Below the pieces are notes generated by a model. It was given only the letters and a program-made list of their open reading frames with translations, was not told the origin of the DNA and did not search any database. From a virus (taxonomy: Duplodnaviria; Caudoviricetes), in IMG/VR virus record IMGVR_UViG_3300036794_000060, positions 1 through 56,673 of that record: 56,673 nt of DNA; one strand, written 5' to 3'. Shown here in pieces: positions 10,759-55,590 of the stretch; the stretch's first letter is position 1, and the number at the start of each line of letters is the position of its first letter. A program made the translations under genes and the position numbers.

Positions 10759-12453
10759 TTATACCTGGGTAATTCCCATCACCGCACCATTCCACCCAGG
10801 CGCGTAACAAATGAACGTCCCATACCAATAGCTGGATGACTCGTACAAGAATTGCTGCACAGGCCACTGAATACCCATGTAATCCTGAACATTGTAAACC
10901 GCCCACACGTCAGAAACGTTAGAATCAGGCAGCGGCAAAGTCCACGACACAATAGGCATGACACCCTGAGGCATCCACGGGTGAACGGTCACGTCCACCA
11001 TCTTTCCAGTAACTTCGTTCTGTACCCCTGTGACGAGGCTGCCGAGCTGTGCGTTGTGCGCGTCGCCGTCGTTCATCAGGTTGATACGGTAAGAGTTACC
11101 GTTCGCGGCCTTCAGGGTGTCGGAGAGCTGCTTACGGTCGTGACCATTGGCGAAAATCTCGTCAGGGTCACCCTTGACTGAGTCGTAAATAGCCGCGAAA
11201 GCAACGTTGAACTCGTTACCCGGGTTAGTGGTGGACAAAGGTCCATTCACGTGGTTCACGTAGCCAGAGTTTGAACCGCAGCAGTATGAAAGGATACCGT
11301 CGTATCCAGTCGCATATGCTGAGGTGTCCGAAGACGGCGCTGTCGAAGCGTTAGTACCGCTCGATGGCAGCGCTCCCTGGATGGTGAACTTGCTTGCAGT
11401 CACGCCAGATGCAGCCAAGTACATTGCTGATGCGGCTGGTGCTGAAGAACCGGTACCCACGTAGATGTCGTATGACAACGCGGCTGTGGTGTTAGCGTTC
11501 GTGATATTCACGTCGATGACACCAGAACCGGTGGCCACCGATACAGCGCCTGTTAGAGCACCGGTACCCCACATGCCGTGGCCGACAACTTCAACGTAGA
11601 CGTTGGTGCCGCCACCAGTGATAGCGGCTTCACCCGACCCTGCGGCACGCGCAGTCAAAGTGACTGTGGGAACGATCGCCCCGGAGAACCCGGAGTCGGT
11701 TCCACGACCACCAAGAAGCATGCGCTCCTCTAGCAACATTGACGACCACAAAAGTGTGGACTGGGATAGCTGCCTTACGTCCTCGTAGCCTTGGCCGGAG
11801 AACTGCGCGGCCCAGCTGACAACGTCGGACACGCCGAATTGCTTGTAGGCCACACTCTGGTCGTAACCAGCGTAGCTGATCGCCGCACCACGCAAATATG
11901 TTGGATACGGTGAACCGCCAGGCTGGAAACCAGTACCCTGGGAGTTCACACCACCTTCAGTGATACCTGGGTGGAAAATACCCACACCACCAGTACCGGT
12001 ACCGGTGAATCCGGAGATTACCTTGAAGCGGTGCGCCAAACCGATTCCGCGGCGACGCGCGATACGGTTACGCAAAGGCGTCGGACGAGGTGCCAAAAGC
12101 TTCGCGGGTGCTTCCAAATCGAAAGCAACCAAACCTTGTGGAACCGGGTTAGCGTTAGAACCTGTTCCCGCAGTCCACTCTTTACCAAGAGCTGATTCGG
12201 TCAGCGCGTTACGCACTGAAGAAATCAATTCCGGAGACAACGCCTTAGAGATTTCCGGTGAGCTCAAAGCTGACTGGAAAGCCGAAGCGGTGTTTGTTTC
12301 ATCGAAGCCGGGACCGCCGGGGAGCGGGACCGGTGAGGAGAGAGCTTTGTTCAGCTCATACTTATACGACTCGAAACGTTCGACGAGCTCCATTGGGGAG
12401 GTACAATCGCCGAACATTTGAGTCGGGGATGGCGGTTTCTTATCCGTAGCCAT
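10759..12453 (-). CDS. Major capsid protein with an internal Ser/Thr/Ala-rich inserted domain
   Basis: 564 aa after protease/scaffold; FDLEAPAKLL...TPLRNRIARRRG and EERMLLGGRG segments; followed by a strong hairpin. Confidence 0.8.
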   Translation of the reverse strand: MATDKKPPSPTQMFGDCTSPMELVERFESYKYELNKALSSPVPLPGGPGFDETNTASAFQSALSSPEISKALSPELISSVRNALTESALGKEWTAGTGSNANPVPQGLVAFDLEAPAKLLAPRPTPLRNRIARRRGIGLAHRFKVISGFTGTGTGGVGIFHPGITEGGVNSQGTGFQPGGSPYPTYLRGAAISYAGYDQSVAYKQFGVSDVVSWAAQFSGQGYEDVRQLSQSTLLWSSMLLEERMLLGGRGTDSGFSGAIVPTVTLTARAAGSGEAAITGGGTNVYVEVVGHGMWGTGALTGAVSVATGSGVIDVNITNANTTAALSYDIYVGTGSSAPAASAMYLAASGVTASKFTIQGALPSSGTNASTAPSSDTSAYATGYDGILSYCCGSNSGYVNHVNGPLSTTNPGNEFNVAFAAIYDSVKGDPDEIFANGHDRKQLSDTLKAANGNSYRINLMNDGDAHNAQLGSLVTGVQNEVTGKMVDVTVHPWMPQGVMPIVSWTLPLPDSNVSDVWAVYNVQDYMGIQWPVQQFLYESSSYWYGTFICYAPGWNGAVMGITQV

Positions 12454-12487: not shown

Positions 12488-14245
12488 TTAGCTGAGGCGC
12501 TTAACTTCAGCGTCCAACATGGCGGCCTTCGCCAAATAACCCTGACGCAAAAGCTGATCATCAGTGTTGATCGCTAGCGCCTTATACTTAGCTGATTCGC
12601 CAGCTAGATCCTGTTGACGCGCAACAGCACGCTCTTGCTCTGTTCGACGCAGTGACGGCCCCCCCGGGGTTGCCATCTGCTCTACCCGACCAAGACGTTC
12701 TCCCAGCTCCCCGAGCTGCGCGGATGTCTGAGCGGTGGACTTCTCAATGATCGCCTGGAAGGACTTCAACAGTGGACTGTCGTCGGCCTCCAACGCGGCT
12801 GAGAAAGCTTTAAACAACACATCCGAAGGCTCACCCTCGGCTTCCACAGACTTGTCAACAGTGTCAACACTGTCTGTGGGGTCTTCCTTCGGAGCCTCCT
12901 TCGTTACGGAGTCCTCCTCGGAGGTAGTTTTGAGAACCTCGCCGGCAGACTTCTGAACATCGTCAACCTTGGCGTTGTCCGGTTCAGTGGTTTTGTTGCT
13001 GCCGTCGCTGCTCCAGTTATCTGGAATCATGTCAGAAGCTCCTAATGCTTTCGCGCGGCGCTTAATGTAAGCGCGAATGGAGTTGTGGTCGCCGGAACCG
13101 CGACCAACGGCGCGGATGGCATTGGATAGGTCAGATTTGTCCGCAATCGGGTACGATGGGTCTCCATTAGGGTTCCTCATCGCTTTCCCTTGTTTCAGCA
13201 TTTGACGTAGCTGCTCGGCCGAGTACTTACCTTTCACAAGGTCGGGGTCAGCGGCCATCAAAATAGGGATCGGCTGCTTGTCGGCACCCATCGCCTGCTG
13301 CTGTTCGCGGCAAATGAAATGCCTCAAACACGAGACAGCGTCAAGGAGGATGTTGATGTCGCAATCCTCAGCCGGGTTATCAGCCATTTCCGAAGCTTCG
13401 GAAATGATCAGCTGCGACAGAATAGAGATCGCTTCTTGAGCGTTCTCAATATCCACCTGTTCGGAGTCGTACTCCGGTGGCATATCGGATGCTTTGGTGA
13501 GTTTAACAAACTCGATCGCATCGTCACGAGTGAAGATCGAGTCGATGGCCTCAACGGTTTTGCTCGCGGCATCCACCAGCGCAGAAGAGTCAGATGACTC
13601 ATCCACGGTGAACAGCTGATCGAACTTCGCCTTCTGCTCCTCCGACATTGACTCGCCGATCTTCACCGTCATCTCCGGAATCCCATCCGAAGACTTCTCG
13701 ATGAAGTCGCCGCACTTCACCAACATCCTTTGGGAGTCGAAATCTCCCGCCGAAATTTCCATCCCCGGCATCGCGCGCTTACACATACGGAACGTCGCCG
13801 TAGGCAGCGCGGGACGGTCAACGAGGGAAACCTCGAAAATCTTTCCGTCCTTCACAATCCCGTTAGGCGCCGAAGTGGACTTCTCCACCCGCGGCTGACC
13901 GATACCAATGGAAAAACCGGTGTAAACCCCGTGCTTGGTTTTTAGTACCGCAACGGGGTCGACGATGTGAGCTTTAATATAGTGGCCGTCGGGTTGAACG
14001 TCATGTTCGACGGCGCGGCCGGCGGCTTTCTTCGAGTCGTGCTGTTCCCGAATATTCCCCCCGGTGGAGAAAGGTCCCCCACCCACGCCGAACCACTCCG
14101 GCATGGCAGACGCCAACCACTCCGGGTCGCAACGCTGGTAGTCCAAATCCAAATCCGGACCGGTCGCTTTACCGTACACATACATGGTTCCGTCGTCATT
14201 CTCGACAGATTTTGTGATCGGCGCGAACACCGAAGTCATTTTCAC
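12488..14245 (-). CDS. Capsid maturation protease / scaffold fusion
   Basis: HK97-type protease motifs (VYGKAT, IREQH, YTGFSIG, EVSLVDRPA) plus acidic and coiled-coil C-terminus. Confidence 0.8.
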   Translation of the reverse strand: MKMTSVFAPITKSVENDDGTMYVYGKATGPDLDLDYQRCDPEWLASAMPEWFGVGGGPFSTGGNIREQHDSKKAAGRAVEHDVQPDGHYIKAHIVDPVAVLKTKHGVYTGFSIGIGQPRVEKSTSAPNGIVKDGKIFEVSLVDRPALPTATFRMCKRAMPGMEISAGDFDSQRMLVKCGDFIEKSSDGIPEMTVKIGESMSEEQKAKFDQLFTVDESSDSSALVDAASKTVEAIDSIFTRDDAIEFVKLTKASDMPPEYDSEQVDIENAQEAISILSQLIISEASEMADNPAEDCDINILLDAVSCLRHFICREQQQAMGADKQPIPILMAADPDLVKGKYSAEQLRQMLKQGKAMRNPNGDPSYPIADKSDLSNAIRAVGRGSGDHNSIRAYIKRRAKALGASDMIPDNWSSDGSNKTTEPDNAKVDDVQKSAGEVLKTTSEEDSVTKEAPKEDPTDSVDTVDKSVEAEGEPSDVLFKAFSAALEADDSPLLKSFQAIIEKSTAQTSAQLGELGERLGRVEQMATPGGPSLRRTEQERAVARQQDLAGESAKYKALAINTDDQLLRQGYLAKAAMLDAEVKRLS

Positions 14246-17942: not shown

Positions 17943-19367
17943 TTATGCCGCCACCAACAAAGGCGCATGGCAAACAACGCACGACGTGGAACTTTTAGGA
18001 TTCGGCGTCTCACAATAATTACACAAATTAGACATCGCCGACAACCAAATCGCCGCCGTCGCACCCATATTCAACTCAGTAGCAGCCCACACCATCGCAT
18101 CCAAATTGTCCGGAGACTCCTTAGAATCAGGTGTGAACAAACACATCTGATCCTCCAACTTAGGTAGAGTCTTGTAGATGTGGCCGCGTTCCTGCTCCCA
18201 CAACGCAGAAATAGGTTCCGCACGAACCAACTTCCCCCTAGTAGCGCGAACAGTCTTATACGCAACATTAGAATCAATCGACCGGATCACAGTCTCGATG
18301 TAATCTCCACCGTTGTTGACCTCGCCGACAATTCGGTCGGCATGCCACCTGTGGTAGGCGTTCACCGCGGTCGCCATACACGCCTGCGGGGTGCCTTTCA
18401 TCGTACAATCCTCAAGAATGTACAAATGGCCATCATGGCTTCTACCGGCAACCACAATCCCCGTGAAGTCGGCTTTTTCGCCGGAAGTCACGGCCGGGTC
18501 GACACCGACAACGATCCGGGACATTGGTGGCAACACATGTACACGAGTGTTAGCGATCAGATCGTGATTCCACAGAGCGCCTTGAATGTCCTCAAGCAGC
18601 TCACCTTCGAGTTCTTGGAGACCGATCCTCGTCCCGGCATAGATCGCTTTGAGTTCGTCGAGAGCTGTTTTGGAGAGGTTGGCGGCGTTGTCCCACGTTT
18701 TCCCGCGGGTGATAGCGACAGAATCATTATCCCTACCGATGAGATCACGCAAAAAGCCGATCGGACGCGGCGTAGTGGTAATCAGGACTCTAGGGTTTTG
18801 GCCGATACGCAACGCCGGCATCAGCGCCTCGGAAAACATGTCATCGACGCGGTCCATCACCGCGGCCTCGTCAACCCACGCTCCGGCTAGGTTCGATCCT
18901 CTGAGTCTTTCGTATCCGTCGGAAGAGTAGCCGTAAACCCTGCTGCCATTATTTAAACGCACCGTCAAATCGGATGCGTTCATACTTTCAAGCTCCCCGG
19001 GAAGGAACGCTTTCAACAAACCTGAGGGTCCTTCGATGCAAACTTTCCGGCAGTCACGCCAGGTGGGAGCGACGATAGCCCACTCAGTTCCGGGGTTCCG
19101 TACGGCTTGTTCGGCGATCCACTCGGCGCCGGTCCGCGTCTTCCCGAACCCTCTCCCGGCCAAGATCAACCAAATATTCCAGATACCCTCCGGAGGTAGC
19201 TGTTCCGGACGAGCTAAATCGTGCCAGGGTCGTGGTCTGTCGGATACTTTTGTGGCGATTAGACGTTCGAGCGCTTCATTCCTGGCTTGTAGTCGTTTCA
19301 GCATTTCCAGCTGGTCAAGGCCGGCTTCGACTAGCTCAGGGTTCTCGTCGCGCAATGGAACCCCCAT
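17943..19367 (-). CDS. terL: Terminase large subunit
   Basis: Walker A AGRGFGKT, Walker B AWVDEAA, ITTTP motif, nuclease VGVDPA and DNLDA; C-terminal CxxC...CxxC. Confidence 0.95.
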   Translation of the reverse strand: MGVPLRDENPELVEAGLDQLEMLKRLQARNEALERLIATKVSDRPRPWHDLARPEQLPPEGIWNIWLILAGRGFGKTRTGAEWIAEQAVRNPGTEWAIVAPTWRDCRKVCIEGPSGLLKAFLPGELESMNASDLTVRLNNGSRVYGYSSDGYERLRGSNLAGAWVDEAAVMDRVDDMFSEALMPALRIGQNPRVLITTTPRPIGFLRDLIGRDNDSVAITRGKTWDNAANLSKTALDELKAIYAGTRIGLQELEGELLEDIQGALWNHDLIANTRVHVLPPMSRIVVGVDPAVTSGEKADFTGIVVAGRSHDGHLYILEDCTMKGTPQACMATAVNAYHRWHADRIVGEVNNGGDYIETVIRSIDSNVAYKTVRATRGKLVRAEPISALWEQERGHIYKTLPKLEDQMCLFTPDSKESPDNLDAMVWAATELNMGATAAIWLSAMSNLCNYCETPNPKSSTSCVVCHAPLLVAA

Positions 19368-20018: not shown

Positions 20019-20540
20019 GAGGAATTATGGAACCGAAGTTCGAGCTCGACCCGAAACTGAACGTGCGCGCGTTGGCGTTGATGGCCGACTTCGAGATTGC
20101 GTTAGCGTCGGCGCGGCGAAAGTTCGACCGGCAACCCCGCGCCTGGAAAGAAAACGCCGACGACCCCATCGGGTGGATGGAAGACATGGAACACGCCATC
20201 GACGGGTTAGACCGCGTCACCTACGCCTACGAAGATGCGTAACCACTGCGGGGTGTGTGGAGACGACATCCCCCTCGGCCAGCTGTATCACACGTTGGTG
20301 TTCCACCGAGAGCGGGAATACCGCGGCGGCTGGATCGACATCGAACACACCCAGATACTCCTGGTGTGGTGTGGGACGTGTGTTCCGTCAAAGACCGCTG
20401 TGACAGATGCGCTCACAGATGTGGGTTTGGCGGAGTGGAAATGACGAACGTCCCGGACCATGGCAGCCCGCGTGGGTCCGGGACGTTCGACCAACCGGAG
20501 AAGCTCTCGACGGTTGGCGGCGAAAGGCTACCACAATGGT

Positions 20541-20577
20541 GAAGGCCGAACCGTCATCGGCATACGGTTCGGCCTTC
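20541..20577 (+). terminator. Stem-loop
   Basis: GAAGGCCGAACCGT-N9-ACGGTTCGGCCTTC. Confidence 0.55.
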
Positions 20578-21950
20578 GTCGGATTCTTTAACAGTCCCCG
20601 CTACAGGGAGGGACCGTCGTGACCAGGTGGTCGGAATCCGGGGGAGACCGGGGGATTTGCGATCCGGTCTCCGTTTTGCACTGTACACCGAGAGGATGCA
20701 TCATGGCTAATCCGGAAGACCCGGAACCGACGGATGAGGAGATCGACGCATTGATGGACGACACCTACGATACGGCTGCTTCGGATGTTACGGATGTAAA
20801 CACCATTGGGGAGTGTTCTTCCGGGTCGGAGCGTCAACGATTCCTTGACAACCTGGATATGGCTGAGAAACTTCTCATCAAATTCTGGGAAGCGCGCCGC
20901 GGACCAGCAAAGTTCAGCGACCAAGGAGGCTTCCGGCAGAACATGAGCGCCGTCTACCTCACCGCAGAGGAGAAAAGTTTCCTGCTGAGGTGGCGGCGTG
21001 GATGAGGATGTTCTCGCGGCGGAACTATGGAACAGGCTCCCCGTCGACCACCGGCTCCTCGCCGACGACGAGCTGGCCATGGCGGCTCTGTTCATCACCA
21101 ACGGCATCGCAAAACTGGAAGGTGACATACTGCGACCCGCCACCTTTGACGAACAACACCAACACCAGGTCGAGATGAAGGAACGAGGATGAGTGGACTC
21201 AAACTCGACTATCCAACTTCGTCGGTCAGCATCCCGGTCGAGTCGACCAGACCGAGCGACGAATCCGCAACCATCGGAGTGACCGCCGTCATCAACGACG
21301 ACATAGCGCTCGCGGTGGTGAATCTTGAATTCCTCGGCGGCCGCGGCGGAGTCCGCAACGAAGGGTTCTACCTCACCCGTGAGAAGGCGCGCCGGCTTGC
21401 TGCGGCGCTCCTGGATATCGTCGGAGAAGCACATGATGACCAACCCTGAGACTCCGAGCTTGAGTCTTTCCCCGGGGAATCTAGCGAAAGCGGAGAAAAT
21501 CATCGCTCACGACGACCCGGAAATCATCACCGCCATCAACAACGGACACATGACCCTAGACCAAGGAGTCGAGCTGGTCGACATGGCCAACGAACCCACC
21601 GTCGAGTCCATCCTGGCGAAATTTGTGGACGCCATGCAGGGACCCACCTGTGTCACCACCCGGGGGATGGTGCGGCTGGCGATGGGGGATGCTTTTTTGA
21701 CCCCGGAGGAGCATGAGTTCCTCATGGCAGGGGAGTGGAGGATGAGCTGGCTCGAAGAGGTACTCCGAGAGCTCGCCATGCAGGAAATCCGGGAGAAACT
21801 CGTCCCCATGTCCGACGACGAACTGTCTGAAGCCGCCAGCGTGTGTCTACAGTCCCTCGCTGAGTGCAAAGACGCTGATGATCGACATGGGTACGCGAGA
21901 ACCTTGGCGATCTTCGACGAGATCAGAGCCGAACACCACCGGAGGAACTC

Positions 21951-25180: not shown

Positions 25181-25618
25181 ATGGCCAACTGGACCCTCAA
25201 CACCCGCTACGGACGACTCACCGTCCTCGACCCCAACCAACAAGGCGACAAAGTAGAAGTCTACTGCGACTGCGGAACCATAAAAACCGTGTGGCGCAAC
25301 CACCTCACATCCGGACAAACCCAATCCTGCGGCTGCCTACGAGACGACATCCTCAAATCCGCCAGCTGGACAAAACAACGACCCAAAGCCACCACCCAAC
25401 GCGACGGCGACCCCGAAATCGGCGACATCTTCGGACGACTCACCGTCACCGGAACACCCCAACCCGGCCACGACCGAACCATCCAATGCCTCTGCACCTG
25501 CGGAAACCAAGTCAACGTCACCATCAAAAACCTCAAAAACCACAAAACATTCTCCTGCGGCTGCTACCGCAAAGAAGGCGCCGGCAAACTCCACACCAAG
25601 AAAAAACCACCCCACTAA
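25181..25618 (+). CDS. Protein with two GRLTV...CxCG...SCGC repeats (domain found in phage HNH/AP2 endonucleases)
   Basis: YGRLTV..CDCG..HLTSGQTQSCGC and FGRLTV..CTCG..NLKNHKTFSCGC; no nuclease domain visible. Confidence 0.8.
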   Translation: MANWTLNTRYGRLTVLDPNQQGDKVEVYCDCGTIKTVWRNHLTSGQTQSCGCLRDDILKSASWTKQRPKATTQRDGDPEIGDIFGRLTVTGTPQPGHDRTIQCLCTCGNQVNVTIKNLKNHKTFSCGCYRKEGAGKLHTKKKPPH

Positions 25619-25654
25619 AAGAATTTGACAGCACACACATTAGCTTGACGATGT

Positions 25655-26002
25655 GTGCGATACACCTGCAAAACATGTAAACGGCCTGACGCGACCGCTA
25701 AGCCTCAACGACCCTGTCCCCAATGTGAGAGAGCGGCCAAGGCTCGCCAGAAGCTCTACGACCAAATGGCGGCCAAACAGAGGCATCTCTGCGCCATCTG
25801 CGGCAAGACCAACCCTGGCAGTCGTCGACTCCACATCGACCACTGCCACACAACCAACAAGACCCGAGACCTCCTATGCGGCAACTGCAACCGCGGACTC
25901 GGATACGCCAAAGACAACCCCAACACCCTCCGAGCAGCAGCCTGCTACCTCAGAAAACACAGGACTGCCGCTACGCTCACGACAAATCCTCAAGTGGCGT
26001 GA
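25655..26002 (+). CDS. Endonuclease VII-family protein
   Basis: CAICG...LHIDHCHTT...LLCGNCNRGLG. Confidence 0.85.
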   Translation: MRYTCKTCKRPDATAKPQRPCPQCERAAKARQKLYDQMAAKQRHLCAICGKTNPGSRRLHIDHCHTTNKTRDLLCGNCNRGLGYAKDNPNTLRAAACYLRKHRTAATLTTNPQVA

Positions 26003-26540
26003 ACAAGGAGACTCTTACGGCACCATCGCCAAACGCCTCGACATCAGCCGCCAACGCGCCACCCAACTCTGGGAACAAGCGCAAACCGCTGAACCAGCCA
26101 GGTGCCGATGCGGCGCCACCATCCCCCTCAACACCAAGGGAGGACGACCAAAAACCTACTGCCGACCCGAACACCGACCCAGCCAAAAAACAACACCACC
26201 CAAGCGATGTTCATGCGGAACAGCACTCACCGACCGACGCAAAAACTACTGCGGACCCGAACACGCACCACTACGACAGCACGCCAAACGCACAGGACTA
26301 TCCAAACAACAGTACAATCAGATGGCCGAACACCAAAACAACCTCTGCGCCATCTGCCAGCAACCCGAAACCGCGACTCTCAACGGGAAAATTAAACGCC
26401 TAGCCGTCGACCACAACCACACCACAAACCAAACCAGAGAACTACTCTGCAACAACTGCAACAGCATGCTAGGCTACTACAACGACAACCCAGAACTACT
26501 CGAAAAAGCCGCCAACTACCTCGAAAAACACGCCGTCTAG
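25965..26540 (+). CDS. HTH + Zn-knuckle + endonuclease VII domain (start uncertain)
   Basis: SYGTIAKRLDISRQRATQL HTH; CAICQQ...LAVDHNHTT...LLCNNCNSMLG. Confidence 0.75.
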   Translation: MPLRSRQILKWREQGDSYGTIAKRLDISRQRATQLWEQAQTAEPARCRCGATIPLNTKGGRPKTYCRPEHRPSQKTTPPKRCSCGTALTDRRKNYCGPEHAPLRQHAKRTGLSKQQYNQMAEHQNNLCAICQQPETATLNGKIKRLAVDHNHTTNQTRELLCNNCNSMLGYYNDNPELLEKAANYLEKHAV

Positions 26541-26629
26541 ACAAATTTTGAAACGTACGCCTACACCAAAAAATACGGACAATCCGTAACCCTTGCCCTG
26601 TTATATCGTATATCTGATCATGAGGGGGG

Positions 26630-26668
26630 ATCGTTTCGTTAGCTAACGACATCGTTTCGTTAGCTAAC
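26630..26668. repeat. 18-bp direct repeat x2 containing palindrome GTTAGCTAAC
   Basis: ATCGTTTCGTTAGCTAAC at 26630 and 26651. Confidence 0.9.
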
Positions 26669-26776
26669 CGAATGGGTAGGGTAGCCTAACCCATCACCCG
26701 TTCAGAGCAGTTCACCCACATGGGGTAACCCGTTCGGCCTAACCCGAAGTTCACCCGATCGGACTAGCATTCGATC

Positions 26777-26804
26777 TTGCTTCCGACGTCTGGCGTGGTA
26801 GACT
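26777..26804 (+). promoter_or_regulatory. Conserved phage promoter copy
   Basis: TCCGACGTCTGGCGTGG-TAGACT; near-identical to copies at 32266 and 36422. Confidence 0.75.
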
Positions 26805-26810
26805 TGACCT

Positions 26811-27222
26811 AGATCGGAAAGAGGGCAAGGGCCGCGGGGGCCGCGCGGGACGCGCGCGGTGAGCGGCATGATCCACAGTCGACGGATGATCAAGGAGGTC
26901 ATCCACAAGATCAACCTCACGGTCCTTTTGGACCGGCGACTCCAGAAAGGCCGCGAGGCACTGACGGAGTTGATCTACGCCCAAGTAATGGGTCCTTGAT
27001 CATCGGGAGATGATCTTGGATCGTCGGAACCCGCGACCCCGCGTGGTAACGGCAGCCGGAGAGGTCGGACCGGTTGCAGGTCCCGTGTAAAGATCATCGG
27101 CGATTGCGCCGCTGAGAGTCCGGTCCAGCCAGAAAGCGTAGATCATCTTCGGGGATCAGTGTTGAGCCGCAAACTCGTTGGAGTCGAGATCAAGATCATC
27201 AAGAATTTGAGGTTTGATGATC
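26811..27222 (+). ncRNA. Candidate large structured ncRNA or 5' leader
   Basis: No credible ORF; follows a promoter; nested long-range helices 26910-19/27208-18, 26937-44/27179-86, 26958-64/27156-62, 26971-80/27136-45, 27067-73/27120-26. Confidence 0.6.
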
Positions 27223-27288
27223 ATGATCATGAACCGACATCATTTCCTCGGCCCTCATGATCATCGGTCATGTACCCCAGAAAGGAAG

Positions 27289-27540
27289 ATGATCATGTTC
27301 GACGCACGAAAGTCATTCCTCACTCAATCCCGCGAGCAAGCAATCACCCGCCTCGCCGAAGCTCTAATCCAGCGCGACACGCTCAATGCGGCGTGCCTAG
27401 ACAATTGGGACGCTGACGACCCTACGCCGTTCTACGCGGCTGTCAGGGGTTCGGAAGCCGTAGTTACGGCATGCGCACGCATCGTAGTCCAGCGCAGCAA
27501 CGAACTCGCCGCACACACGATGTTTCAGCAACTCGTTTGA
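27289..27540 (+). CDS. Hypothetical protein
   Basis: GAAAGGAAG RBS; MIMFDARKSF... Confidence 0.65.
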   Translation: MIMFDARKSFLTQSREQAITRLAEALIQRDTLNAACLDNWDADDPTPFYAAVRGSEAVVTACARIVVQRSNELAAHTMFQQLV

Positions 27541-27799
27541 TCATGTGCGGCAACGATCGTATACGCACAACATCAACAACCGTCGCCAAGTGCGACGTTT
27601 CCGCAGGTGGCACCCAAACGATCATGTGCGCGAACCTATGCGCATCGGCTATCCGTGCGCATCACTAACACACCCAATAGCGCACATGATCACCACATAA
27701 CCGCAGGTCACAGCACTACACGCCTACGCGCGTGCGAGGCACTTGGATGTATGTTTCGTCGTTTCCGGCACGGTCGTTCTGAGAATGGAGATGTTTGTT

Positions 27800-30700
27800 A
27801 TGACTGCACCGTTTGCTGCGCCTGAGCCGTTTGCTGCTGATTTGTTGGCTGAGATGCGTGGTTGGATTAGTGATTGTGTGTGGGGTGATTTGACGCCTTC
27901 GCAGATTAAGCGTATGTCTACGGCGCGGGTGGTTGATGGTGTTAGGCGGCATTATTCGGGTGGGGTGAGTCAGTTTGTGTCGGACTTTTACCAGTTTGGC
28001 CCGGAACCGTATTACCAGTGATTCGGTAGGTAGGTGAGCGCGTGTTCGTTGGTTTGAGCGCGCGTTGACTGGTTTACCGGATGGCAGTCAGAGAAAGGTC
28101 ATACGATGTATGCAGTGAAGATGATCACGGTCAAGCAGGATCGGTTTATTCGTTCGTTGCTCGATGGCAGGGTGGTTTCTCCGGCTGTTCGTTTGTGGAT
28201 TGAGCGGCGGATCACGGACATGTCGTCTAGGGACGCCAGTAAGGCGATAGGGGTCCTGTTGGCTTGTCCGGTGGTTGAGGTACCGACCACCCCCGATACG
28301 GCTGTCAGCGTGGCTGTCAGTCCCGGGAGTGAGGTTATCGAGCCCGGTATCTACGAACGGGATGGTTCGGTGTATCAGGTGGTTCGGTCTAAGACGTCTG
28401 GTTTTTTGTACGGGAAGGTGCTGACGCCTACCGGGTCGACTCGTTTGACTGAGGCGGGTACGGTGATTGACGCGAAATACGAGTATTTTGGTGTCGTTCC
28501 GTTCCTGCGTGCTGCGGATAGGGTGTCTGCTGAGCGTGCGCAGGAATTGTCCACTGTCCACGGTTATTGTGTGGTTTGTGGTCGCCGTTTGGACGCTGGC
28601 GATAGTGTTGCGGCCGGTATTGGTCCGGTATGCGCCGGTAAGGTTTAGCTCGCGGAATGGTCGTCAGGCTGACCCACCCGTTAGGGGTGGGTCGCCGAAT
28701 GGTTTTTCCGAGAGAAAAGAGAAAGACAATGACGGATGAACAGTTCATCGAAAAGTTGTATGCAGAGACACGCGCATTGACCGCGGGTGTCGACACCCGT
28801 AAAGGTGAATCGGTGGACACGTCACAGCTACGAGAGGGTGACTTGATTCTCAACTACCATACGGTGGAATGATCCACGGGGACACCGTGACGGGTGAATG
28901 GGATATCGCGTTCCCGAACATTCGTTCCGCGGCTAGCTTCGCTGATGTCATGCTGGCGGATGACGAATTCGCGTATCCGTTTCTCATCTCGGCGAAACTA
29001 CGCGACCCGGTCACCGATCTGAACCATTGGTGTGTGTTGACGGTTGTGTTGAACCCGCTTGCCGCTAATTTGAAACCTGTTATCTGACGCGCAAACGACG
29101 CTACCGCTAGTCGGTAGCGTCTGGTGAGTGCCAGACACAAGGGAAGGATCACCATGATTACGCAATTCACCTACACCCTACCTCCGGAGAAATTGCGGGT
29201 AGGGGACATGTTCGTCAGTGATCATTCGATCATCACCGAGGTTTGGCATGATCCCGAGGGTGTATGGGTAGATACGGATAACTTCGATTCCGGTTACCTA
29301 ATGGGTAAATCGTATCGGGTTATCCGCGAATTCATCGATTAGTCCGGTTGACTACGGGGGTTGACATCCAATTGGGATGTTTTCCTCCGCGGCTTACCGG
29401 CCGAACCGAGAGAGGATAGGGACAATGGGTTACAGCGACGTTGACGCTGGTGAAGTCGTCGGCACTGACATTGTTGACGTTACCGCGCGTGGTGGGAGTC
29501 GTCGGCAGCGTGGTTCGGCGATTGCCGCGTACGTTCGGACGCATCCGCAGCTCGAACGGGTACATATCAGCTACAGCGAGACTTACGGATTCCAGACTGC
29601 CACCTACGCGCGTTATCGCAAGGTGTGACTGTTTGTGTGGTGAATGTCCTAGCTTCCCCCGAAAAATTGGAGGCTAGGTACTTGACGACACAAGGAGGAG
29701 AAAGTGAACGTATCGAGTATCGCCGCTCAGATCATCGTCAAGGCTAAAGAACGTCAGGCTGAGCGGGTGGAACAGGAGGAGACGAACGGACCGTACGACT
29801 GGTCTAATATGGACTCTCTCCGCGAATACATCGCCGTACTCAAATCTGCCGTGTTCACCGAATCAGTGAACACTGTATACGTGACCGTCGCCGATACGTG
29901 GCACGGTCGTTTGTGGAGCTGGTCTGGCGCGGAAATGTTGGATGTTGCGTCCCAAGGTTTCAACCTACCGGAGACGGTACGTATTGAGGAGTGCTCACCG
30001 ACTACTCACGCGCTTGTGTGGTGACTGTTTGTGTGTGGTGAACCTCTGATATCCCCCGCGAAAAATTGTGGGGGATATCAGGGATTGAACACACAGAAAT
30101 CGAGGAAGGAATGAGTGGTTTACGCGTTCAACGTAAATGCCGTGAGACCGGTCATCTAGTTGGCCTCTATGACGGTATCACCGAGGGTATGGATATCGAC
30201 GCTGGTCGCTGGCAGACGGTCTGCGAGGAACACGGCTGGATAATCTCGCATGAGAAATATTCGACCGCGTTATCGTGGCTGTCACATCCGCTAGAATGGT
30301 GTGACGAGTGTCAACGGGAGAAAGGTTTACTTGAATGGACGTAGTTATAGGTTACAGTCCATTTGCTGACGTATCTGTTGTATTGGGTCCGTTTCGTTCG
30401 CCGGAGACAACTTTAGCGGCAACGGAACATTTACAACACTGCGGATACGCGACGGAAGTATGTCCCCTGCTGAGAATAGAGGATGTAGTACCAATCACCG
30501 GCGCCGAGGATGACGACTGACCGTTAGGTGTACTGCGGCCACTCAACTAGTGTGAGTGGTTAGCGGTAACCGAACGACCAACACAGAAAGAGAGAGTCAT
30601 GATGACAATCGTAAAACTCACCGCGGACGACGCTGGATGCTACGTTGACGGACACTTGGGACAGTACGGGGTGGCGCACATGGTTCAGCGCGCGGAATGG

Positions 30701-37678: not shown

Positions 37679-37921
37679 ATGAAAGAACGCACACGATGGG
37701 GAAGGGTCGACCAGACAGGGAAAATCACGCTCTGCCAGGTCGACCCACCCCGCAGCGAGATCGCGGCGCACCCGGAACTGTACGTGTGTCAAATGGTGCG
37801 CATCTATCCGTGGGTGGTCCCGCTCACTAACCGTGAGCAGGCGGGGAGACCGCGCTGTCACCACGGCGTCAAACTCGGCCAGTCATGTCCACTCTGCCGC
37901 AAGGAGGAATCATGTCCCTAG
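37679..37921 (+). CDS. Hypothetical protein
   Basis: AAGGAG RBS; 80 aa; C-terminal CHHG...CPLC. Confidence 0.6.
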   Translation: MKERTRWGRVDQTGKITLCQVDPPRSEIAAHPELYVCQMVRIYPWVVPLTNREQAGRPRCHHGVKLGQSCPLCRKEESCP

Positions 37922-38502
37922 AAACTGGACGTCTCCCGGCCATCTTCGGATACGCCAGATGCTCCACCAAGGAGCAGAACCTCGGGGACCAGATACGTCG
38001 GCTACACGCCGCCGGGTGTGTGTATGTTTTCAAAGACGAAGGTGTCTCCGGGATGAAGGCGTCCCGACCGGACTGGGATAGGTGTTTGGCGCATTTGGTC
38101 CCCGGCGATGTTTTGAAGGTCACCAAACTGGACCGTGCCGGTAGGTCGTTGCGTCACCTGTTGGAGCTGGTGGATGATCTGAACGAGAAAGGGGTGGGGT
38201 TTGCCACGCTCGATCAGCAGTTCGACACCACATCGGCGTCCGGGAAGATGATCTTCACGGTGATTGCGGCGTTCGCCGAATTCGAGAAAGCACTCAACCT
38301 CGAACGAACAATGGAAGGACTCCACACCGCATGGTCCAACGGTAAAAAGTCCGGTCAACCACCCAAGCTGACCCCGGAGAAAGAACAGTCCGTCCCGATC
38401 CTGTTCCGGGGTGGCCAGACGATCACCGCGATCGCACGATCGTTGGATGTTCACCAGGCCACCATCTACCGGACCCTACGGAAATTGGGAATCGAATACT
38501 AG
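37912..38502 (+). CDS. Small serine recombinase (resolvase/invertase) with C-terminal HTH
   Basis: GYARCST catalytic Ser, SRPDW, GDVLKVTKLDRAGRS, AFAEFEK..ERT.EGL, HTH ATIYR. Confidence 0.95.
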   Translation: MSLETGRLPAIFGYARCSTKEQNLGDQIRRLHAAGCVYVFKDEGVSGMKASRPDWDRCLAHLVPGDVLKVTKLDRAGRSLRHLLELVDDLNEKGVGFATLDQQFDTTSASGKMIFTVIAAFAEFEKALNLERTMEGLHTAWSNGKKSGQPPKLTPEKEQSVPILFRGGQTITAIARSLDVHQATIYRTLRKLGIEY

Positions 38503-39366: not shown

Positions 39367-39871
39367 GACGGGGGGCCAGCCGGATCGGCGCGTGACTGAC
39401 CCGGCTGGCATCCGTTACTTTACTCCGAACAGACCGTGAACTCAGGTTTTAAACCTATCGGTGCTAGGCCGATTGGGTGGTTTTTGCTGACCTCGGAGCG
39501 CTAAAGAGGAGCCTCTTTTGAGATTGTCAGACGAAATCAATGGTCCAGGGACTCGAATGAGTATGTGTGAACCCTGTGACCTACCTGTGAAAAAAGACGT
39601 GTTTCGACAGCCGCAACACGCCGGTTAGCGTTACCTGAACGCCGACTGAGATTTTTGTATGGTTCACTAATCGTCTAGTGTGACTGGCGAGACCTCTGGG
39701 GGGTTCGTCGCGTGCTCATGCGCACGTTATCTGAGATCCGCTCTCAGCATAGCACCCTCCTTGCGGTCCTGTCACCACATCCTCCGTAACAGCCGTAACA
39801 CCGGCCGCAGCGGGGAACTACCGCCGCAGCCACCACCATACATCACTGAGGACAGTAGGAGAGCTACCGTC

Positions 39872-40174
39872 ATGCCAACGAACGGCGAAGACGACCCCAA
39901 CGGTGAAAACCTCGACACCCCACCCGAATCCGATGACCCGCCGCGACAGTCCACTGGTGATCTTACTCCCGACGCGGAGCTGTTGACCGTCGACGAAGTC
40001 GCCGCATCACTCCGCGTGTCCAAGATGACGATCTACCGCATGATCAACAACGGCGTCCTCGACCACCTCCGCATCGGACGATCCGTCCGCATCCTGAAAG
40101 GAGCACTCACCCGCCAACTAGAACTCACCCGGCAGCTAGAACTCACCCGCAACCACGAACACACCTGCGACTGA
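39872..40174 (+). CDS. Excisionase-family (MerR-like HTH) DNA-binding protein
   Basis: LLTVDEVAASLRVSKMTIYRMINNG.L...RIGRSVRI; C-terminal LTRQLE tandem duplication. Confidence 0.9.
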   Translation: MPTNGEDDPNGENLDTPPESDDPPRQSTGDLTPDAELLTVDEVAASLRVSKMTIYRMINNGVLDHLRIGRSVRILKGALTRQLELTRQLELTRNHEHTCD

Positions 40175-40266
40175 CAGGCGGAGCCGGACCCGCGCGTGAG
40201 GTCCGGCTCCCCTCGCGGGAGCCACACCAAACTTACACGACCGTAAAAAATGGGGAGAAAGCAAGC

Positions 40267-40491
40267 ATGACGTTCGCGCTAGACCCATCCGTAAAAAGGG
40301 ACATCGACGCGCTGGCCAGGAAACTCGAACCCGTCGTCACCACCATGCGGGAACGGTACGTTCACCAGTCGAAACGATGGCGAGACACCGACGAAGGCAC
40401 CGAAGTCTGGTTTTGGATCGAAGAGCTAGACGCACTACAGCAAGACCTACACCGGAAACGCAGCGGGATACCCTTGGGGTTGCCGCAATGA
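40267..40491 (+). CDS. Hypothetical protein
   Basis: 74-aa ORF coupled by ATGA to the next gene. Confidence 0.6.
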   Translation: MTFALDPSVKRDIDALARKLEPVVTTMRERYVHQSKRWRDTDEGTEVWFWIEELDALQQDLHRKRSGIPLGLPQ

Positions 40492-40871
40492 TCTGGACAG
40501 CACAGTTGATCAAAGCCGCCAGAGAAGAACGCGGCCTCACCCGAGCGCAGCTGGCGGAACTCCTCGGCACCAACACCCGCCGCATCATCGCCATCGAAAG
40601 CGGCGACGACACCGCGGACGTGTTCACCGCACGACTCACCCAAGTGTTCACCGAACACTGTCGAGACTGCGGAGCCGTCGGCTGCGAATACTGCGAACCC
40701 GCGCACTACCTCACCCAAGACATGCGATACATCGCCGAAGACGCAGAGTCGCTCTCCGACGTCGCCGAACGAGTGTTCGGATGGGTCGAAGAACACCTAT
40801 CCGAGGGGTGGGAACTACTCCAGCCACTCAACGACGGCTACCTACATCTCGTCCGGGGGTTACACGCATGA
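40488..40871 (+). CDS. XRE-family HTH protein with Cys cluster
   Basis: IKAAREERGLTRAQLAELLGTNTRRIIAIESG; CRDCG..GCEYC. Confidence 0.8.
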   Translation: MIWTAQLIKAAREERGLTRAQLAELLGTNTRRIIAIESGDDTADVFTARLTQVFTEHCRDCGAVGCEYCEPAHYLTQDMRYIAEDAESLSDVAERVFGWVEEHLSEGWELLQPLNDGYLHLVRGLHA

Positions 40872-45685: not shown

Positions 45686-46312
45686 CTAAAGGTTAATCAC
45701 AGCTCCAACGTTGATCAAATCAGGATTCGACAACACATTACGGTTCTCTTGAAAGACTTCACGCCACGTATGGCCATGATTCTCGGCGATCGACGACAAC
45801 GTGTCCCCGAGCTGGATCACATACTCGAATCTCCTCGGCTCAACAACCCGGTGATGACGACCACGATATGTGCGCGTCTCTTCAAACCCATACGAGGAAC
45901 TGCCGTAAGTTCGGCGGCGCCAACACGACTTCGACGCCTCCCACGGTGTCAACCCGTCCCGAGCGTAGGCGCGGTTAGCGATCTCCATCTGCTCTTCGGG
46001 AGACGCGTCAGCAGCGGTACGGCCGAACCTTAAACCACCCAACGAACGCCACGTACCACTAAGGAACTGAAACAACCCCGATGCGGAGCTGTGAGAATTG
46101 TGAGCACGGGGATTCCAACCGGACTCGCAAGAAATGACGCCACCCCATCCCTGAGGTGGACCGCCGTCTCCGAGGTCATCGGCGATCGGACCCCAATTGA
46201 CCGTCGGCGCAGCAGCCTCCGCCGTACCAGCCGTCAACGGAACAGCCAACACCCCCGACCCCACCACCACGGCGAGCCTCGGAAATCTCGTTGGCTTACT
46301 GTGTCGACCCAC
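45686..46312 (-). CDS. Rpf-like transglycosylase with LysM domain
   Basis: MGRHSKP leader and signal peptide; CESG, GLFQF..GTW, ASPEEQ..IA, G..PW; LysM YVIQLGDTLSSIA...NPDLI. Confidence 0.9.
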   Translation of the reverse strand: MGRHSKPTRFPRLAVVVGSGVLAVPLTAGTAEAAAPTVNWGPIADDLGDGGPPQGWGGVISCESGWNPRAHNSHSSASGLFQFLSGTWRSLGGLRFGRTAADASPEEQMEIANRAYARDGLTPWEASKSCWRRRTYGSSSYGFEETRTYRGRHHRVVEPRRFEYVIQLGDTLSSIAENHGHTWREVFQENRNVLSNPDLINVGAVINL

Positions 46313-47088: not shown

Positions 47089-47117
47089 GTTTCTTTCTTT
47101 CGGCGTATACAAAGGAA

Positions 47118-55494: not shown

Positions 55495-55495
55495 G

Positions 55496-55574: not shown

Positions 55575-55590
55575 ATGTAGTTGTCGAACG

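What the first reader, a model, noticed from the sequence alone, without database searches (positions are those of the whole stretch)
26777..27222. Promoter-driven ~400-nt noncoding region with nested long-range pairing: candidate new large phage ncRNA or switch
Seen: just downstream of a conserved promoter (-10 TAGACT, 26799-26804) is an ORF-free stretch whose helices nest in order. They are ATCAACCTCA 26910-19 / TGAGGTTTGAT 27208-18; CGACTCCA 26937-44 / TGGAGTCG 27179-86; GCACTGA 26958-64 / TCAGTGT 27156-62; TGATCTACGC 26971-80 / GCGTAGATCA 27136-45 (10-bp perfect); and GGACCGG 27067-73 / CCGGTCC 27120-26. Local hairpins include CGGTCC-TTTT-GGACCG, GATCATC-GGGA-GATGATC and CGGCG-ATTG-CGCCG. 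G-U pairs work on the + strand. A competing hairpin, GATCATCAA 27194-202 / TTGATGATC 27214-22, excludes the outermost helix. I see no RNase P, tmRNA or group I/II intron signature. Inference: a multidomain RNA (anti-termination leader, decoy, ribozyme or GOLLD/ROOL-like RNA) heading the early gene array.
Basis: partly seen in the sequence, partly recalled or inferred. Interest (0 to 1): 0.85.

Follow-up and report, generated by a model that had tools for sequence, protein, structure and literature searches.

The report
Highly folded early leader RNA candidate
An uncultured soil phage of actinobacteria has a roughly 400-480-base stretch with no convincing gene, sitting behind a promoter-like site, whose sequence folds far better than chance; it is probably a structured leader RNA for the next genes, but nothing yet shows that it is transcribed or that selection maintains the fold.

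Summary
All six helices and three hairpins are at the stated coordinates. The fold is far beyond chance. For 26811-27222 on the + strand z is -7.3. It is the most over-folded of 563 windows after composition control. With every GATC/GATCATC copy held in place z is still -4.7, 0 of 200 shuffles. The fold is also unusually well defined.

No Rfam family, tRNA or tmRNA matches. The small ORFs have no relatives.

The RNA reading is not proven. The element occurs only in four near-identical IMG/VR contigs plus soil-run contigs. 83 of 85 core pairs never vary and none covaries. The - strand and DNA energy parameters also give z of about -5 to -5.8. No RNA run was available.

A 7-nt motif, GATCATC/GATGATC, occurs 9 times, and iteron-like repeats lie upstream. 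A DNA-level role therefore stays open.

Best reading (about 0.5): a structured early leader or ncRNA with a modular core at 26885-27246. Its 3' pairings bury the ribosome-binding sites. It is analogous, not homologous, to the P-left noncoding RNA of mycobacteriophages L5 and D29.

The parts
26630..26671 (.). Two tandem 21-nt repeats. The first holds the 14-bp palindrome TCGTTAGCTAACGA; the second holds its 12-bp core CGTTAGCTAACC/G. They look like operators and lie upstream of the promoter-like block.
   Evidence: the repeat finder D4 and I11. The first copy is kept in relative L003 and the second is partly replaced.
26672..26776 (.). Variable upstream module with repeated TAACCC / GTTCACCC words. 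In relative L003/L008 it is replaced by a longer stretch carrying about five GATCAACTGA repeats.
   Evidence: Alignment A1. Identity per 100 nt falls to 51-72% only here.
26777..26804 (+). Promoter-like block: -35 TTGCTT, a 16-nt spacer, and an extended -10 TGgTAGACT. Relative L003 has TTGACA ... TAGTCT.
   Evidence: Sequence. It is an island of conservation inside the swapped segment. It is one of only 2 matches to TTGNNN-N12-15-TGnTAnnnT in the window. The generic sigma-70 scan does not call it.
26810..26825 (+). Conserved start-proximal block TAGATCGGAAAGAGGG, including the polypurine run GGAAAGAGGG. The inferred RNA 5' end is near 26811.
   Evidence: Identical in the window and in L003 despite divergent flanks. 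The transcription start is inferred, not measured.
26826..26884 (+). Variable G+C-rich 5' hairpin region (26831-35/26863-67 and 26840-47/26853-60). L003 has a different sequence here.
26885..27246 (+). Conserved core module of 362 nt, kept in all five known variants. It comprises H1 26884-26904 (loop AAGGA), H2 26920-35, a long closing stem, and a junction carrying H3, H4 and H5.
   Evidence: Left mosaic boundary at 26884/5 in L003. Right boundary at 27246/7 in the X8 contig. RNAfold gives -159.7 kcal/mol, z -6.7. MFE frequency is 0.94% against a shuffle median of about 1e-5. Ensemble diversity is 30 against 90.
26937..26980 (+). 5' arm of the long closing stem. It pairs with 27136-27186 as 9 + 2 + 2 + 2 + 8 + 5 + 10 bp, including the perfect 10-bp TGATCTACGC/GCGTAGATCA.
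26991..27130 (+). Three junction branches: H3 26991-27022 (GAUCAUC-GGGA-GAUGAUC tip), H4 27023-27053, and the forked H5 27063-27130 (27074-90 and 27094-27115).
   Evidence: RNAalifold structure of model R1.
27136..27186 (+). 3' arm of the long closing stem.
   Evidence: The X8 variant changes 27149 U>C (G.U to G-C) and 27156 U>C (breaks an end pair), and has indels in the internal loop 27150-53.
27188..27228 (+). 3' hairpin H6 (27188-92/27224-28 and 27194-203/27213-22). GAGG (27209-12) lies in its loop and AUG 27217 in its stem. H6 excludes the alternative outer helix 26910-19/27208-18, which would pair GAGG with CCUC.
   Evidence: H6 conformer -159.7 kcal/mol, forced outer helix -149.0.
27257..27296 (+). 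Hairpin AUGAUCAUC / GAUGAUCAU. It encloses the AGGAAG ribosome-binding site (27283-88) and pairs the AUGs at 27289 and 27295.
   Evidence: It lies outside the core and is absent from the X8 variant, which diverges after 27246.
27295..27540 (+). First downstream ORF: 81 aa from AUG 27295, 83 aa from 27289, or 107 aa from AUG 27217. No family is known.
   Evidence: Only one cluster of near-identical relatives was found.

Best explanation
The stretch is the transcribed, non-coding 5' leader of the rightward gene array that starts at about 27217-27295, in an uncultured soil phage of actinobacteria. The leader may also accumulate as a stable RNA.

Inferred sequence of events:
- Transcription starts near 26811 from the TTGCTT-N16-TGgTAGACT block.
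- The first ~75 nt vary between relatives.
- Positions 26885-27246 form a compact module: a 5' hairpin with an AAGGAGG loop, a small UUUU hairpin, a ~38-bp interrupted closing stem (26937-80 / 27136-86), and a junction with three branches.
- At the 3' end, local hairpins H6 and 27257-96 hold the two candidate translation start regions in stems. H6 competes with a weaker long-range helix, 26910-19 / 27208-18, that would pair GAGG with CCUC.

The likeliest action is in cis: control of translation and/or stability of the first early genes. The seven-base GAUCAUC/GAUGAUC stems and the polypurine tracts would serve as protein- or ribosome-binding points.

Shown: the complementarity, its statistical excess, its modular conservation, and the absence of a known family or coding signal.

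Inferred: transcription, strand, function in RNA form, and any switching.
For: Fold statistics:
- z is -7.29 on the + strand and -6.7 for the core.
- The region ranks first of 563 composition-corrected windows on the + strand.
- Controls that neutralise the GATC motifs are still significant: z -3.5 and z -4.7, 0 of 200.
- The half-against-half duplex gives z -4.2, 0 of 300.
- The fold is well defined. MFE frequency is 0.94%, higher than in any of 60 shuffles, and ensemble diversity is 30 against a shuffle minimum of 37.
- With RNA parameters the + strand beats the - strand: -189.2 against -166.7, and -159.7 against -145.0 kcal/mol.

Context:
- The promoter-like block and the first 16 transcribed bases survive as a conserved island inside a swapped 235-bp segment in relative L003.
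- Genes on both sides are on the + strand.
- Mosaic breakpoints in two independent variants fall at 26884/5 and 27246/7. They delimit the core the way gene borders are delimited in phages.

No coding signal:
- Pfam finds nothing for the 37-aa ORF.
- The 125-residue read-through product finds only its own clade's 43-aa ORF, plus one weak hit to a repeat protein, among 1.84 billion representatives.

Precedent: in mycobacteriophages L5, D29 and StarStuff the early lytic promoter P-left drives a ~500-nt region without conserved ORFs. That region yields abundant, stable, processed non-coding RNAs (PMC5712189; passages and section 11 read). The L5 region also folds better than shuffles, z -3.66.
Against: - No covariation. 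Of 85 core pairs, 83 never vary, 2 are broken by single substitutions (26976 U>C in L009; 27064 G>A in L010), and 0 are compensated. The X8 variant adds one G.U to G-C change and one broken end pair.
- The near-identity of the element is not special. The HNH / endonuclease VII genes just upstream are equally 98-100% identical in the same relatives. Conservation here may therefore reflect recent spread rather than constraint.
- The - strand (z -5.3 and -5.0) and DNA energy parameters (z -5.8 and -5.45) also fold far better than shuffles. G.U counts do not separate the strands.
- The promoter is only a consensus-like match. The window's -35 matches 3 of 6 positions, and the scan finds no promoter.
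- The 7-mer GATCATC/GATGATC occurs 9 times in 412 nt, and GATC occurs 13 times in the 362-nt core. That is more than pairing needs and is equally compatible with protein sites on DNA.
- In the X8 variant the core is followed by different sequence. The core therefore cannot be tied solely to the 83-aa ORF.
Confidence: 0.5

Rival explanations
1. The region acts at the DNA level as a regulatory or replication-origin region. The repeated GATCATC(GG) words, the GATC cluster and the upstream iteron- or operator-like repeats would be protein-binding sites on double-stranded DNA. The 'helices' would then be by-products of sites in both orientations, or would act as extruded or single-stranded DNA hairpins during initiation.
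For: - GATC occurs 25 times in 26541-27760, against 5.5 per kb in the whole window.
- GATCATC/GATGATC occurs 9 times in 26885-27296, out of 31 in 56.7 kb.
- (T/A)GATCATCGG occurs as a direct repeat three times (D5).
- Tandem palindromic 21-mers lie at 26630-71.
- The swapped upstream segment of L003 is itself packed with GATCAACTGA repeats, and it lies ahead of the promoter, so it is probably not transcribed.
- No other of the 80 DUF6011 loci reaches this GATC density.
- DNA-parameter folding is significant and equal on both strands.
Against: - Holding all GATC and 7-mer copies fixed still leaves z -4.7, and forcing them unpaired leaves z -3.5.
- The strongest helices (CGACUCCAG/UUGGAGUCG, GGCACUGA/UCAGUGUU, GGACCGG/CCGGUCC, CGGCG/CGCCG) owe nothing to the motif.
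- Nested pairing across 155-300 nt is not what double-stranded DNA sites need.
- No Dam-type methyltransferase (PF05869, PF02086) was found in this record or in the 97.9-kb relative. Both records are incomplete.
- No replication initiator gene is recognisable next to the region.
Confidence: 0.2
2. The region has no function of its own. It would be a recently spread, co-converted flank of the homing-endonuclease cassette, or a decaying small mobile element. Its inverted repeats would be historical (duplications, palindromic words) rather than selected.
For: - The block 25650-27290, comprising three HNH / endonuclease VII genes plus the element, is about 99-100% identical among relatives whose flanks are 85-97% identical.
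- A 12-nt perfect inverted repeat, TGATCATGAGGG / CCCTCATGATCA, brackets 26615-27263 (I8).
- 3 of the 4 single substitutions seen in helices break pairs.
- The element has no relatives outside one small clade.
Against: - There is a single copy in this record and in the 97.9-kb relative, and no copy in the 50,697 phage records or the 401 genomes sampled. This is unlike a mobile repeat.
- The interior is not a decayed simple palindrome. It is a closing stem plus three different branch hairpins.
- The well-defined ensemble and the first rank in the genome are not expected from neutral sequence.
- Recombination breakpoints respect the core.
Confidence: 0.15
3. The functional RNA is made from the - strand, as an antisense or leftward non-coding RNA. 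It would end at the terminator-like hairpin plus T-run at 26588-26574.
For: - The - strand also folds with z -5.3 and -5.0, and ranks second of 563 windows.
- The only canonical hairpin-plus-T6 site near the region is on the - strand, at 26588-26574.
Against: - The - strand is 14-22 kcal/mol less stable than the + strand.
- No leftward promoter-like site was recognised.
- All neighbouring genes and the conserved promoter block point rightward.
- The terminator-like count (4) is not clearly above the shuffle expectation of 1.5 +/- 1.3.
Confidence: 0.07
4. The region encodes small proteins, either a 37-46-aa peptide from 26859/26886-26999 or a read-through product. The frame 26808-27260 has a single in-frame TGA at 26997.
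For: - One frame runs for 151 codons with a single stop.
- Gene callers have predicted the 43-aa ORF in public data (P0015).
- One weak similarity to a FAS1-repeat protein crosses the stop.
Against: - There is no Shine-Dalgarno sequence before AUG 26886 and no Pfam match.
- Among 1.84 billion representatives the only hits are the clade's own ORF and one hit whose E-value (2.5e-5) sums six repeats at 27-35% identity.
- TGA is used as a normal stop in this phage, for example at 27538-40.
- My rough estimate is that one such open frame among six arises by chance about 1 time in 10.
Confidence: 0.05

Closest known systems
P-left early non-coding RNA of Cluster A mycobacteriophages (L5, D29, StarStuff)
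   Same: Both are in actinobacterial phages. Both are ~500-nt stretches directly behind an early promoter, at the head of an early gene array, without conserved ORFs. The L5 region also folds better than shuffles (z -3.66). In L5 the RNA is abundant, stable and processed to 100-400-nt species, and its function is unknown (PMC5712189; passages and section 11 read).
   Different: There is no sequence or structure homology. blastn against 50,697 phage records gave no match, and the best hit of model R1 on the L5 right end scored 7.5 bits. The present element folds much more strongly (z -7.3). It carries the GATCATC repeats and sits inside the genome rather than at a genome end. About 90% of L5 transcripts end at a defined 3' site, whereas no terminator is seen here. 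Expression here is untested.
Large ornate phage- or bacteria-associated RNAs (GOLLD, ROOL, OLE, raiA, HEARO) in Rfam
   Same: All are large multi-helix non-coding RNAs, often phage- or prophage-borne. PMC12286853 was seen only in the search listing and the start of its abstract.
   Different: No covariance-model match at gathering score or at E <= 10. At about 360-nt core, this element is smaller than ROOL or GOLLD (sizes recalled, not from a call). It has no wide phylogenetic spread and no covariation support.
Translational riboswitch or leader expression platforms, in which a closing helix competes with a hairpin that holds the Shine-Dalgarno sequence
   Same: The outer helix 26910-19/27208-18 would pair CCUC with GAGG four bases before AUG 27217. 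It is mutually exclusive with hairpin H6. A second hairpin covers AGGAAG and AUG 27289/27295.
   Different: No known aptamer matches. The alternative helix is 10.7 kcal/mol weaker. No ligand or conserved pocket can be inferred from four near-identical sequences.
Iteron/GATC-rich replication origins (E. coli oriC, P1 oriR) and RNA-primed origins (ColE1 RNA II)
   Same: This region has a GATC cluster, direct and inverted short repeats, and a promoter reading into a structured region. The features of the named origins are recalled, not taken from a call.
   Different: No Dam methylase and no adjacent initiator gene were found. Actinobacterial hosts are not known for Dam control (recalled). The long-range nested helices exceed what the repeats explain.

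Membership tests
Any Rfam 15 family (GOLLD, ROOL, HEARO, 6S, T-box, riboswitches, group I/II introns, RNase P, tmRNA) | Covariance-model score at or above the family's gathering threshold | tested here: not met
   Whole window at gathering score: only 4 tRNAs, at 55.4-56.5 kb. Region 26500-27400 at E <= 10: 3 matches, all far below gathering (snoZ247 18.2/38, Mu-gpT-DE 16.1/49, DUF3085 14.9/40.6). ARAGORN finds 0 genes in 26000-28000.
Group I / group II self-splicing intron | Interrupts a host gene whose exons join into one reading frame, with a conserved catalytic core | tested here: not met
   The upstream gene ends with a stop at 26540, followed by 345 nt without an ORF. No split frame is seen. 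No intron model matches at E <= 10.
L5-type P-left early non-coding RNA | Lies directly downstream of the early lytic promoter and lacks conserved ORFs over about 30 codons | tested here: inconclusive
   A promoter-like block at 26777-26804 is conserved within the clade but is not experimentally defined. The longest ORF, 46 aa, has no relatives outside the clade.
L5-type P-left early non-coding RNA | Sequence or structure homology to the Cluster A right-end region | tested here: not met
   blastn (distant mode) against the phage collection: no match. Model R1 on L5 50500-52297 with filters off: best 7.5 bits.
L5-type P-left early non-coding RNA | Abundant, stable, processed transcript early in infection | not testable with these tools
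   No RNA run holds the stretch. The host is unknown.
Riboswitch-like translational leader | Conserved ligand-binding fold with covariation, plus alternative pairing over the ribosome-binding site | tested here: inconclusive
   Alternative pairing over GAGG/AUG 27217 is present. Covariation is 0 of 85 pairs because the four sequences are 99-100% identical.
Small mobile element (MITE, or ultra-small elements like the mycobacteriophage MPME; description recalled) | Terminal inverted repeats and several copies or empty sites | tested here: not met
   A 12-nt perfect inverted repeat lies at 26615/27252. But there is one copy in G000 and one in G001. None was found in the phage records, in 401 Actinomycetota genomes or elsewhere in IMG/VR.
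Replication origin | Iterons, an A+T-rich unwinding element and a cognate initiator gene nearby | tested here: inconclusive
   Repeats are present. There is a short A+T-rich run at 26600-26615. No initiator is recognisable in the flanking genes. Origin activity cannot be tested here.

The most novel reading that the evidence does not exclude
The 362-nt core (26885-27246) is a self-contained RNA gene of a new, lineage-restricted class. It would be an ornate phage RNA released from the early transcript and acting in trans, for example as a scaffold or decoy. Its repeated GAUCAUC/GAUGAUC stems and SD-like loops would recruit a phage or host protein, ribosomes or a nuclease. The modular recombination boundaries and the different downstream context in one variant fit a unit that does not depend on the next ORF.
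Probability: 0.15. Interest if true: 0.75.

Novelty: new variant of a known kind. Interest (0 to 1): 0.45.

Why it matters
Long, promoter-proximal non-coding RNAs at the head of early operons are known in actinobacterial phages (L5, D29), but their function is still unexplained. A second, unrelated and much more strongly folded example would suggest that such leaders are a recurrent strategy rather than a quirk of one cluster. This one also has clear module boundaries, repeated 7-nt stems and pairings that bury ribosome-binding sites, so it would give a compact object for structure probing and reporter tests. For now it rests on thermodynamics and context alone, in an uncultured phage known from a few soil metagenomes.

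Tried and rejected
Known RNA families. Rfam at gathering score and at E <= 10 gave nothing. ARAGORN found no genes.

Wider homologue hunts. All were negative beyond three IMG/VR contigs:
- blastn (distant mode) of 26541-27300 and of the capsid region against 50,697 phage records: no match.
- Exact or degenerate patterns in IMG/VR: only the same contigs.
- A 22-mer in JGI metagenome contigs: 0 stretches.
- The 86-codon open frame used as a wobble-tolerant probe: 0 of 598 candidates in metagenome contigs. As a positive control in IMG/VR it found 3 of 151, the three known contigs.
- nhmmer on the roughly 80 loci beside DUF6011 homologues: nothing.
- Covariance model R1 on 78 such loci plus the window: best foreign hit 17.7 bits, a 79-nt hairpin.
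- R1 on 16 loci from genome contigs, on three actinobacterial genomes and on the L5 right end: nothing credible.
- BLAST of the core in 401 sampled Actinomycetota genomes: 17 genomes with matches of 22-41 nt only, at per-genome E of 1e-3 to 1e-2. Several fall on the codon-like run ATCAAGGAGGTCATC. I judged these to be chance. Two of those genomes (G178, G395) are flagged unpublished. Nothing rests on them except their inclusion in that negative count.

Neighbour proteins as anchors.
- The 83-aa ORF has one cluster of near-identical relatives and one spurious distant locus, L007.
- DUF6011 relatives are at most 46% identical and not syntenic.

Expression. No RNA holder was listed for the stretch. 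The 12 listed runs are soil DNA runs kept as contigs. Parts of the stretch had no cover in X10-X12.

Dam methylation. PF05869 and PF02086 were not found in G000 or G001, both of which are incomplete.

G.U strand asymmetry. Tried and found uninformative: 11 against 10.

Special hyper-conservation of the element. Rejected, because the upstream HNH genes are equally identical.

Coding. Pfam finds nothing for the 37-aa ORF. The read-through search is described under the rivals.

Closest cultured phages. The capsid-like protein gives only 25-30% identity to Thermoanaerobacterium, Alicyclobacillus and Brevundimonas phages. The host guess (Actinomycetota) rests instead on the Lsr2, Rpf-like transglycosylase, Clp_N and DUF6011 domains.

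Literature.
- (actinobacteriophage / noncoding RNA / intergenic / secondary structure) returned nothing relevant among the 15 papers listed.
- One search gave the GOLLD/ROOL cryo-EM paper (listing only).
- led to PMC5712189.
- I did not find a description of this element in these three searches.

Full report
WHAT THE WINDOW IS. The window is a whole IMG/VR virus record of 56,673 bp, linear, with CheckV completeness 67%.
- Structural genes lie on the - strand from about 0.3 to 19.4 kb: a terminase-like gene at 17943-19367, a protease-like gene at 12488-14245 and a capsid-family gene at 10759-12453.
- From about 22 kb onward the genes run on the + strand.
- Several domains point to an actinobacterial host: Lsr2 (50864-51334), an Rpf-like transglycosylase plus LysM (45686-46312), Clp_N (46483-47142), DUF6011 (28106-28648) and DUF3631.
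- No cultured phage is close. blastn gives no match, and the capsid-like protein is only 25-30% identical to distant phages.
- The sequencing runs that hold the stretch are labelled soil metagenomes.

THE LOCUS. The finding lies in a 748-bp gap.
- On the left are three homing-endonuclease-like genes: an HNH gene at 25181-25618, and endonuclease VII genes at 25655-26002 and ending at 26540.
- On the right is a small ORF of no known family, readable from 27217, 27289 or 27295 to 27540.

The gap contains, in order:
- Two tandem 21-mers, the first holding the 14-bp palindrome TCGTTAGCTAACGA, at 26630-71.
- A stretch of TAACCC/GTTCACCC words.
- The promoter-like block TTGCTT-N16-TGgTAGACT at 26777-26804.
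- The block TAGATCGGAAAGAGGG.
- A G+C-rich hairpin.
- The folded core.

CHECK OF THE OBSERVATION. RNAfold of 26811-27222 gives -189.2 kcal/mol against -151.6 +/- 5.2 for 100 dinucleotide shuffles (z -7.29). Four further controls were run.
1. Genomic background. 563 windows of 400 nt on both strands were regressed on base composition. Window 26901-27300 on the + strand is the most over-folded in the record (residual -34 kcal/mol, z -3.84). The next is 20201-20600.
2. Long-range pairing alone. The best duplex between the two halves of 26885-27228 scores -119.9 against -90.0 +/- 7.1, with 0 of 300 shuffles as good.
3. With the nine GATCATC/GATGATC copies forced unpaired, z is -3.5. With all GATC and 7-mer copies (73 of 362 positions) held in place and only the rest shuffled, z is -4.7, 0 of 200.
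4. Definition of the fold. For the core, the MFE structure holds 0.94% of the ensemble, against a shuffle median of about 1e-5 and a maximum of 1e-3. Ensemble diversity is 30 against a mean of 90 and a minimum of 37.

ANATOMY.
- H1, 26884-26904, has the loop AAGGA. Together with the adjacent GG this reads AAGGAGG, with no start codon at a usable distance.
- H2 is 26920-35.
- The closing stem pairs 26937-80 with 27136-86 in blocks of 9, 2, 2, 2, 8, 5 and 10 bp.
- The junction carries H3 (26991-27022, tip GAUCAUC-GGGA-GAUGAUC), H4 (27023-53) and the forked H5 (27063-27130).
- H6 is 27188-27228.
- The outer helix 26910-19/27208-18 would pair CCUC with the GAGG that precedes AUG 27217. It excludes H6 and is 10.7 kcal/mol worse (-149.0 against -159.7 kcal/mol).
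- Beyond the core, hairpin 27257-65/27288-96 encloses AGGAAG and pairs AUG 27289 and AUG 27295.
- No hairpin-plus-U-run terminator lies on the + strand in the region.

RELATIVES AND WHAT THEY SAY. Only three other IMG/VR contigs carry the element. Contigs in soil runs carry it too.
- The core is 99-100% identical in all of them. The endonuclease genes upstream are equally identical, while the flanks are 85-97%. I therefore do not read the identity as special constraint. Recent spread with the endonuclease cassette would also explain it.
- In L003/L008 the segment 26650-26884 is replaced by unrelated sequence rich in GATCAACTGA repeats. The -35, the -10 and the first 16 transcribed bases still remain as an island, about 39 of 50 positions by my count on alignment A1.
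- A 1,083-nt contig of run X8 (depth 7.2) matches from 26541 to 27246 and then continues with unlike sequence.
- Two independent mosaic joints therefore bracket 26885-27246. That is the behaviour of a discrete module.
- The substitutions are few. 26976 U>C (L009) and 27064 G>A (L010) each break a pair. In X8, 27149 U>C turns a G.U into G-C, 27156 U>C breaks an end pair, and the rest fall in loops.
- On the four-sequence alignment, 83 of 85 pairs never vary and none covaries.
- All wider searches were negative.

RNA OR DNA, AND WHICH STRAND. With RNA parameters the + strand is better than the - strand: -189.2 against -166.7, and -159.7 against -145.0 kcal/mol, with z of -7.3 and -6.7 against -5.3 and -5.0. 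DNA parameters give about the same z on both strands, -5.8 and -5.45. G.U counts do not discriminate. The + strand RNA reading therefore rests mainly on the rightward promoter-like block, the orientation of all neighbouring genes and a moderate energy advantage. It does not rest on proof.

THE REPEATED WORDS.
- GATC occurs 25 times in 26541-27760, of which 13 are in the 362-nt core. The window average is 5.5 per kb.
- GATCATC/GATGATC occurs 9 times in 26885-27296, out of 31 in the whole window.
- Three pairs of these form identical 7-bp stems: H3, H6 and the hairpin at 27257-96.
- (T/A)GATCATCGG recurs three times as a direct repeat.
- This is more than folding requires. It points to sequence-specific recognition, whether on RNA or on DNA, and I cannot tell which.
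- No Dam-type methylase was found in this record or in the 97.9-kb relative.

CODING.
- The longest ORFs are 46 aa and 33 aa on the + strand and 40 and 48 aa on the - strand.
- One frame, 26808-27260, has a single TGA.
- Its read-through product was searched against 1.84 billion representatives. It found only the clade's own 43-aa ORF and one FAS1-repeat protein. That hit's E-value (2.5e-5) comes from six repeats at 27-35% identity. I treat it as chance.
- Pfam finds nothing.

COMPARISON WITH WHAT IS KNOWN. The closest functional analogue I found is the P-left RNA of Cluster A mycobacteriophages.
- It is a ~500-nt region without conserved ORFs directly behind the early lytic promoter.
- It gives the most abundant, stable and partly processed transcripts of infection, and its function is unknown (PMC5712189; passages and section 11 read).
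- The L5 region folds with z -3.66.
- It shares no homology with the present element.
- Membership in any Rfam family was tested and not met.

VERDICT.
- The pairing pattern is real and strongly non-random, and it belongs to no known family.
- The most likely reading (about 0.5) is a structured + strand early leader or ncRNA with a modular core. Its 3' pairings hold the first ribosome-binding sites.
- A DNA-level regulatory or origin role for the GATC-rich words (about 0.2) and a non-functional, recently spread flank (about 0.15) remain live.
- Transcription, strand and function are all inferred.
- Interest is moderate. This is a clean, testable candidate and a second, unrelated example of an unexplained kind of actinophage RNA. 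It is known so far only from a handful of near-identical metagenomic sequences.

Noticed in passing
window 25181-26540: Three consecutive homing-endonuclease-like genes: an HNH gene at 25181-25618, an endonuclease VII gene at 25655-26002, and an HTH plus endonuclease VII gene ending at 26540. Their coding strand is very A+C-rich (GC skew about -0.2, AT skew about +0.35). They are 98-100% identical in relatives whose flanks differ, which looks like a recently spread cassette.
   Followed up: partly
window 26630-26671; L003 5900-6040 (reverse strand): Tandem 21-mers built on GTTAGCTAAC palindromes look like operators. In relative L003/L008 the adjoining segment is swapped for one carrying about five GATCAACTGA repeats, ahead of a better -35 (TTGACA).
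   Followed up: partly
window 26615-26626 and 27252-27263: A 12-nt perfect inverted repeat, TGATCATGAGGG / CCCTCATGATCA, lies 625 nt apart and brackets the promoter and the whole folded core. Its meaning is unknown, and half of it is the common TGATCA word.
   Followed up: no
window 20243-20600: The second most over-folded region of the record (RNA z -5.35). It has two 14-bp perfect hairpins (GAACGUCCCGGACC... and GAAGGCCGAACCGU...), lies beside the leftward gene 20601-21503, and probably holds terminators.
   Followed up: partly
window 27535-27745: The next intergenic gap is also structured (z -3.78). It has 12-nt perfect inverted repeats, GATCATGTGCGC / GCGCACATGATC, that again carry GATCAT words.
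   Followed up: partly
window 26808-27260: One reading frame crosses the whole element with a single in-frame TGA at 26997-26999. That TGA sits at the foot of the GATCATC-GGGA-GATGATC hairpin. One weak FAS1-repeat similarity crosses the stop, and I judged it to be chance.
   Followed up: yes
window 26574-26588 (- strand): A hairpin, TACGGA-TTG-TCCGTA, followed by T6 on the - strand is the only canonical terminator-like site near the element. No leftward gene is known that it would end.
   Followed up: no
window 55423-56533 (- strand): A cluster of four tRNA genes.
   Followed up: no
window 37885-38502, 39680-40871, 50864-51334: A small serine recombinase (resolvase plus HTH_7), two HTH proteins and an Lsr2-like protein lie in the right arm. 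They could be regulators acting on the repeats described here.
   Followed up: no
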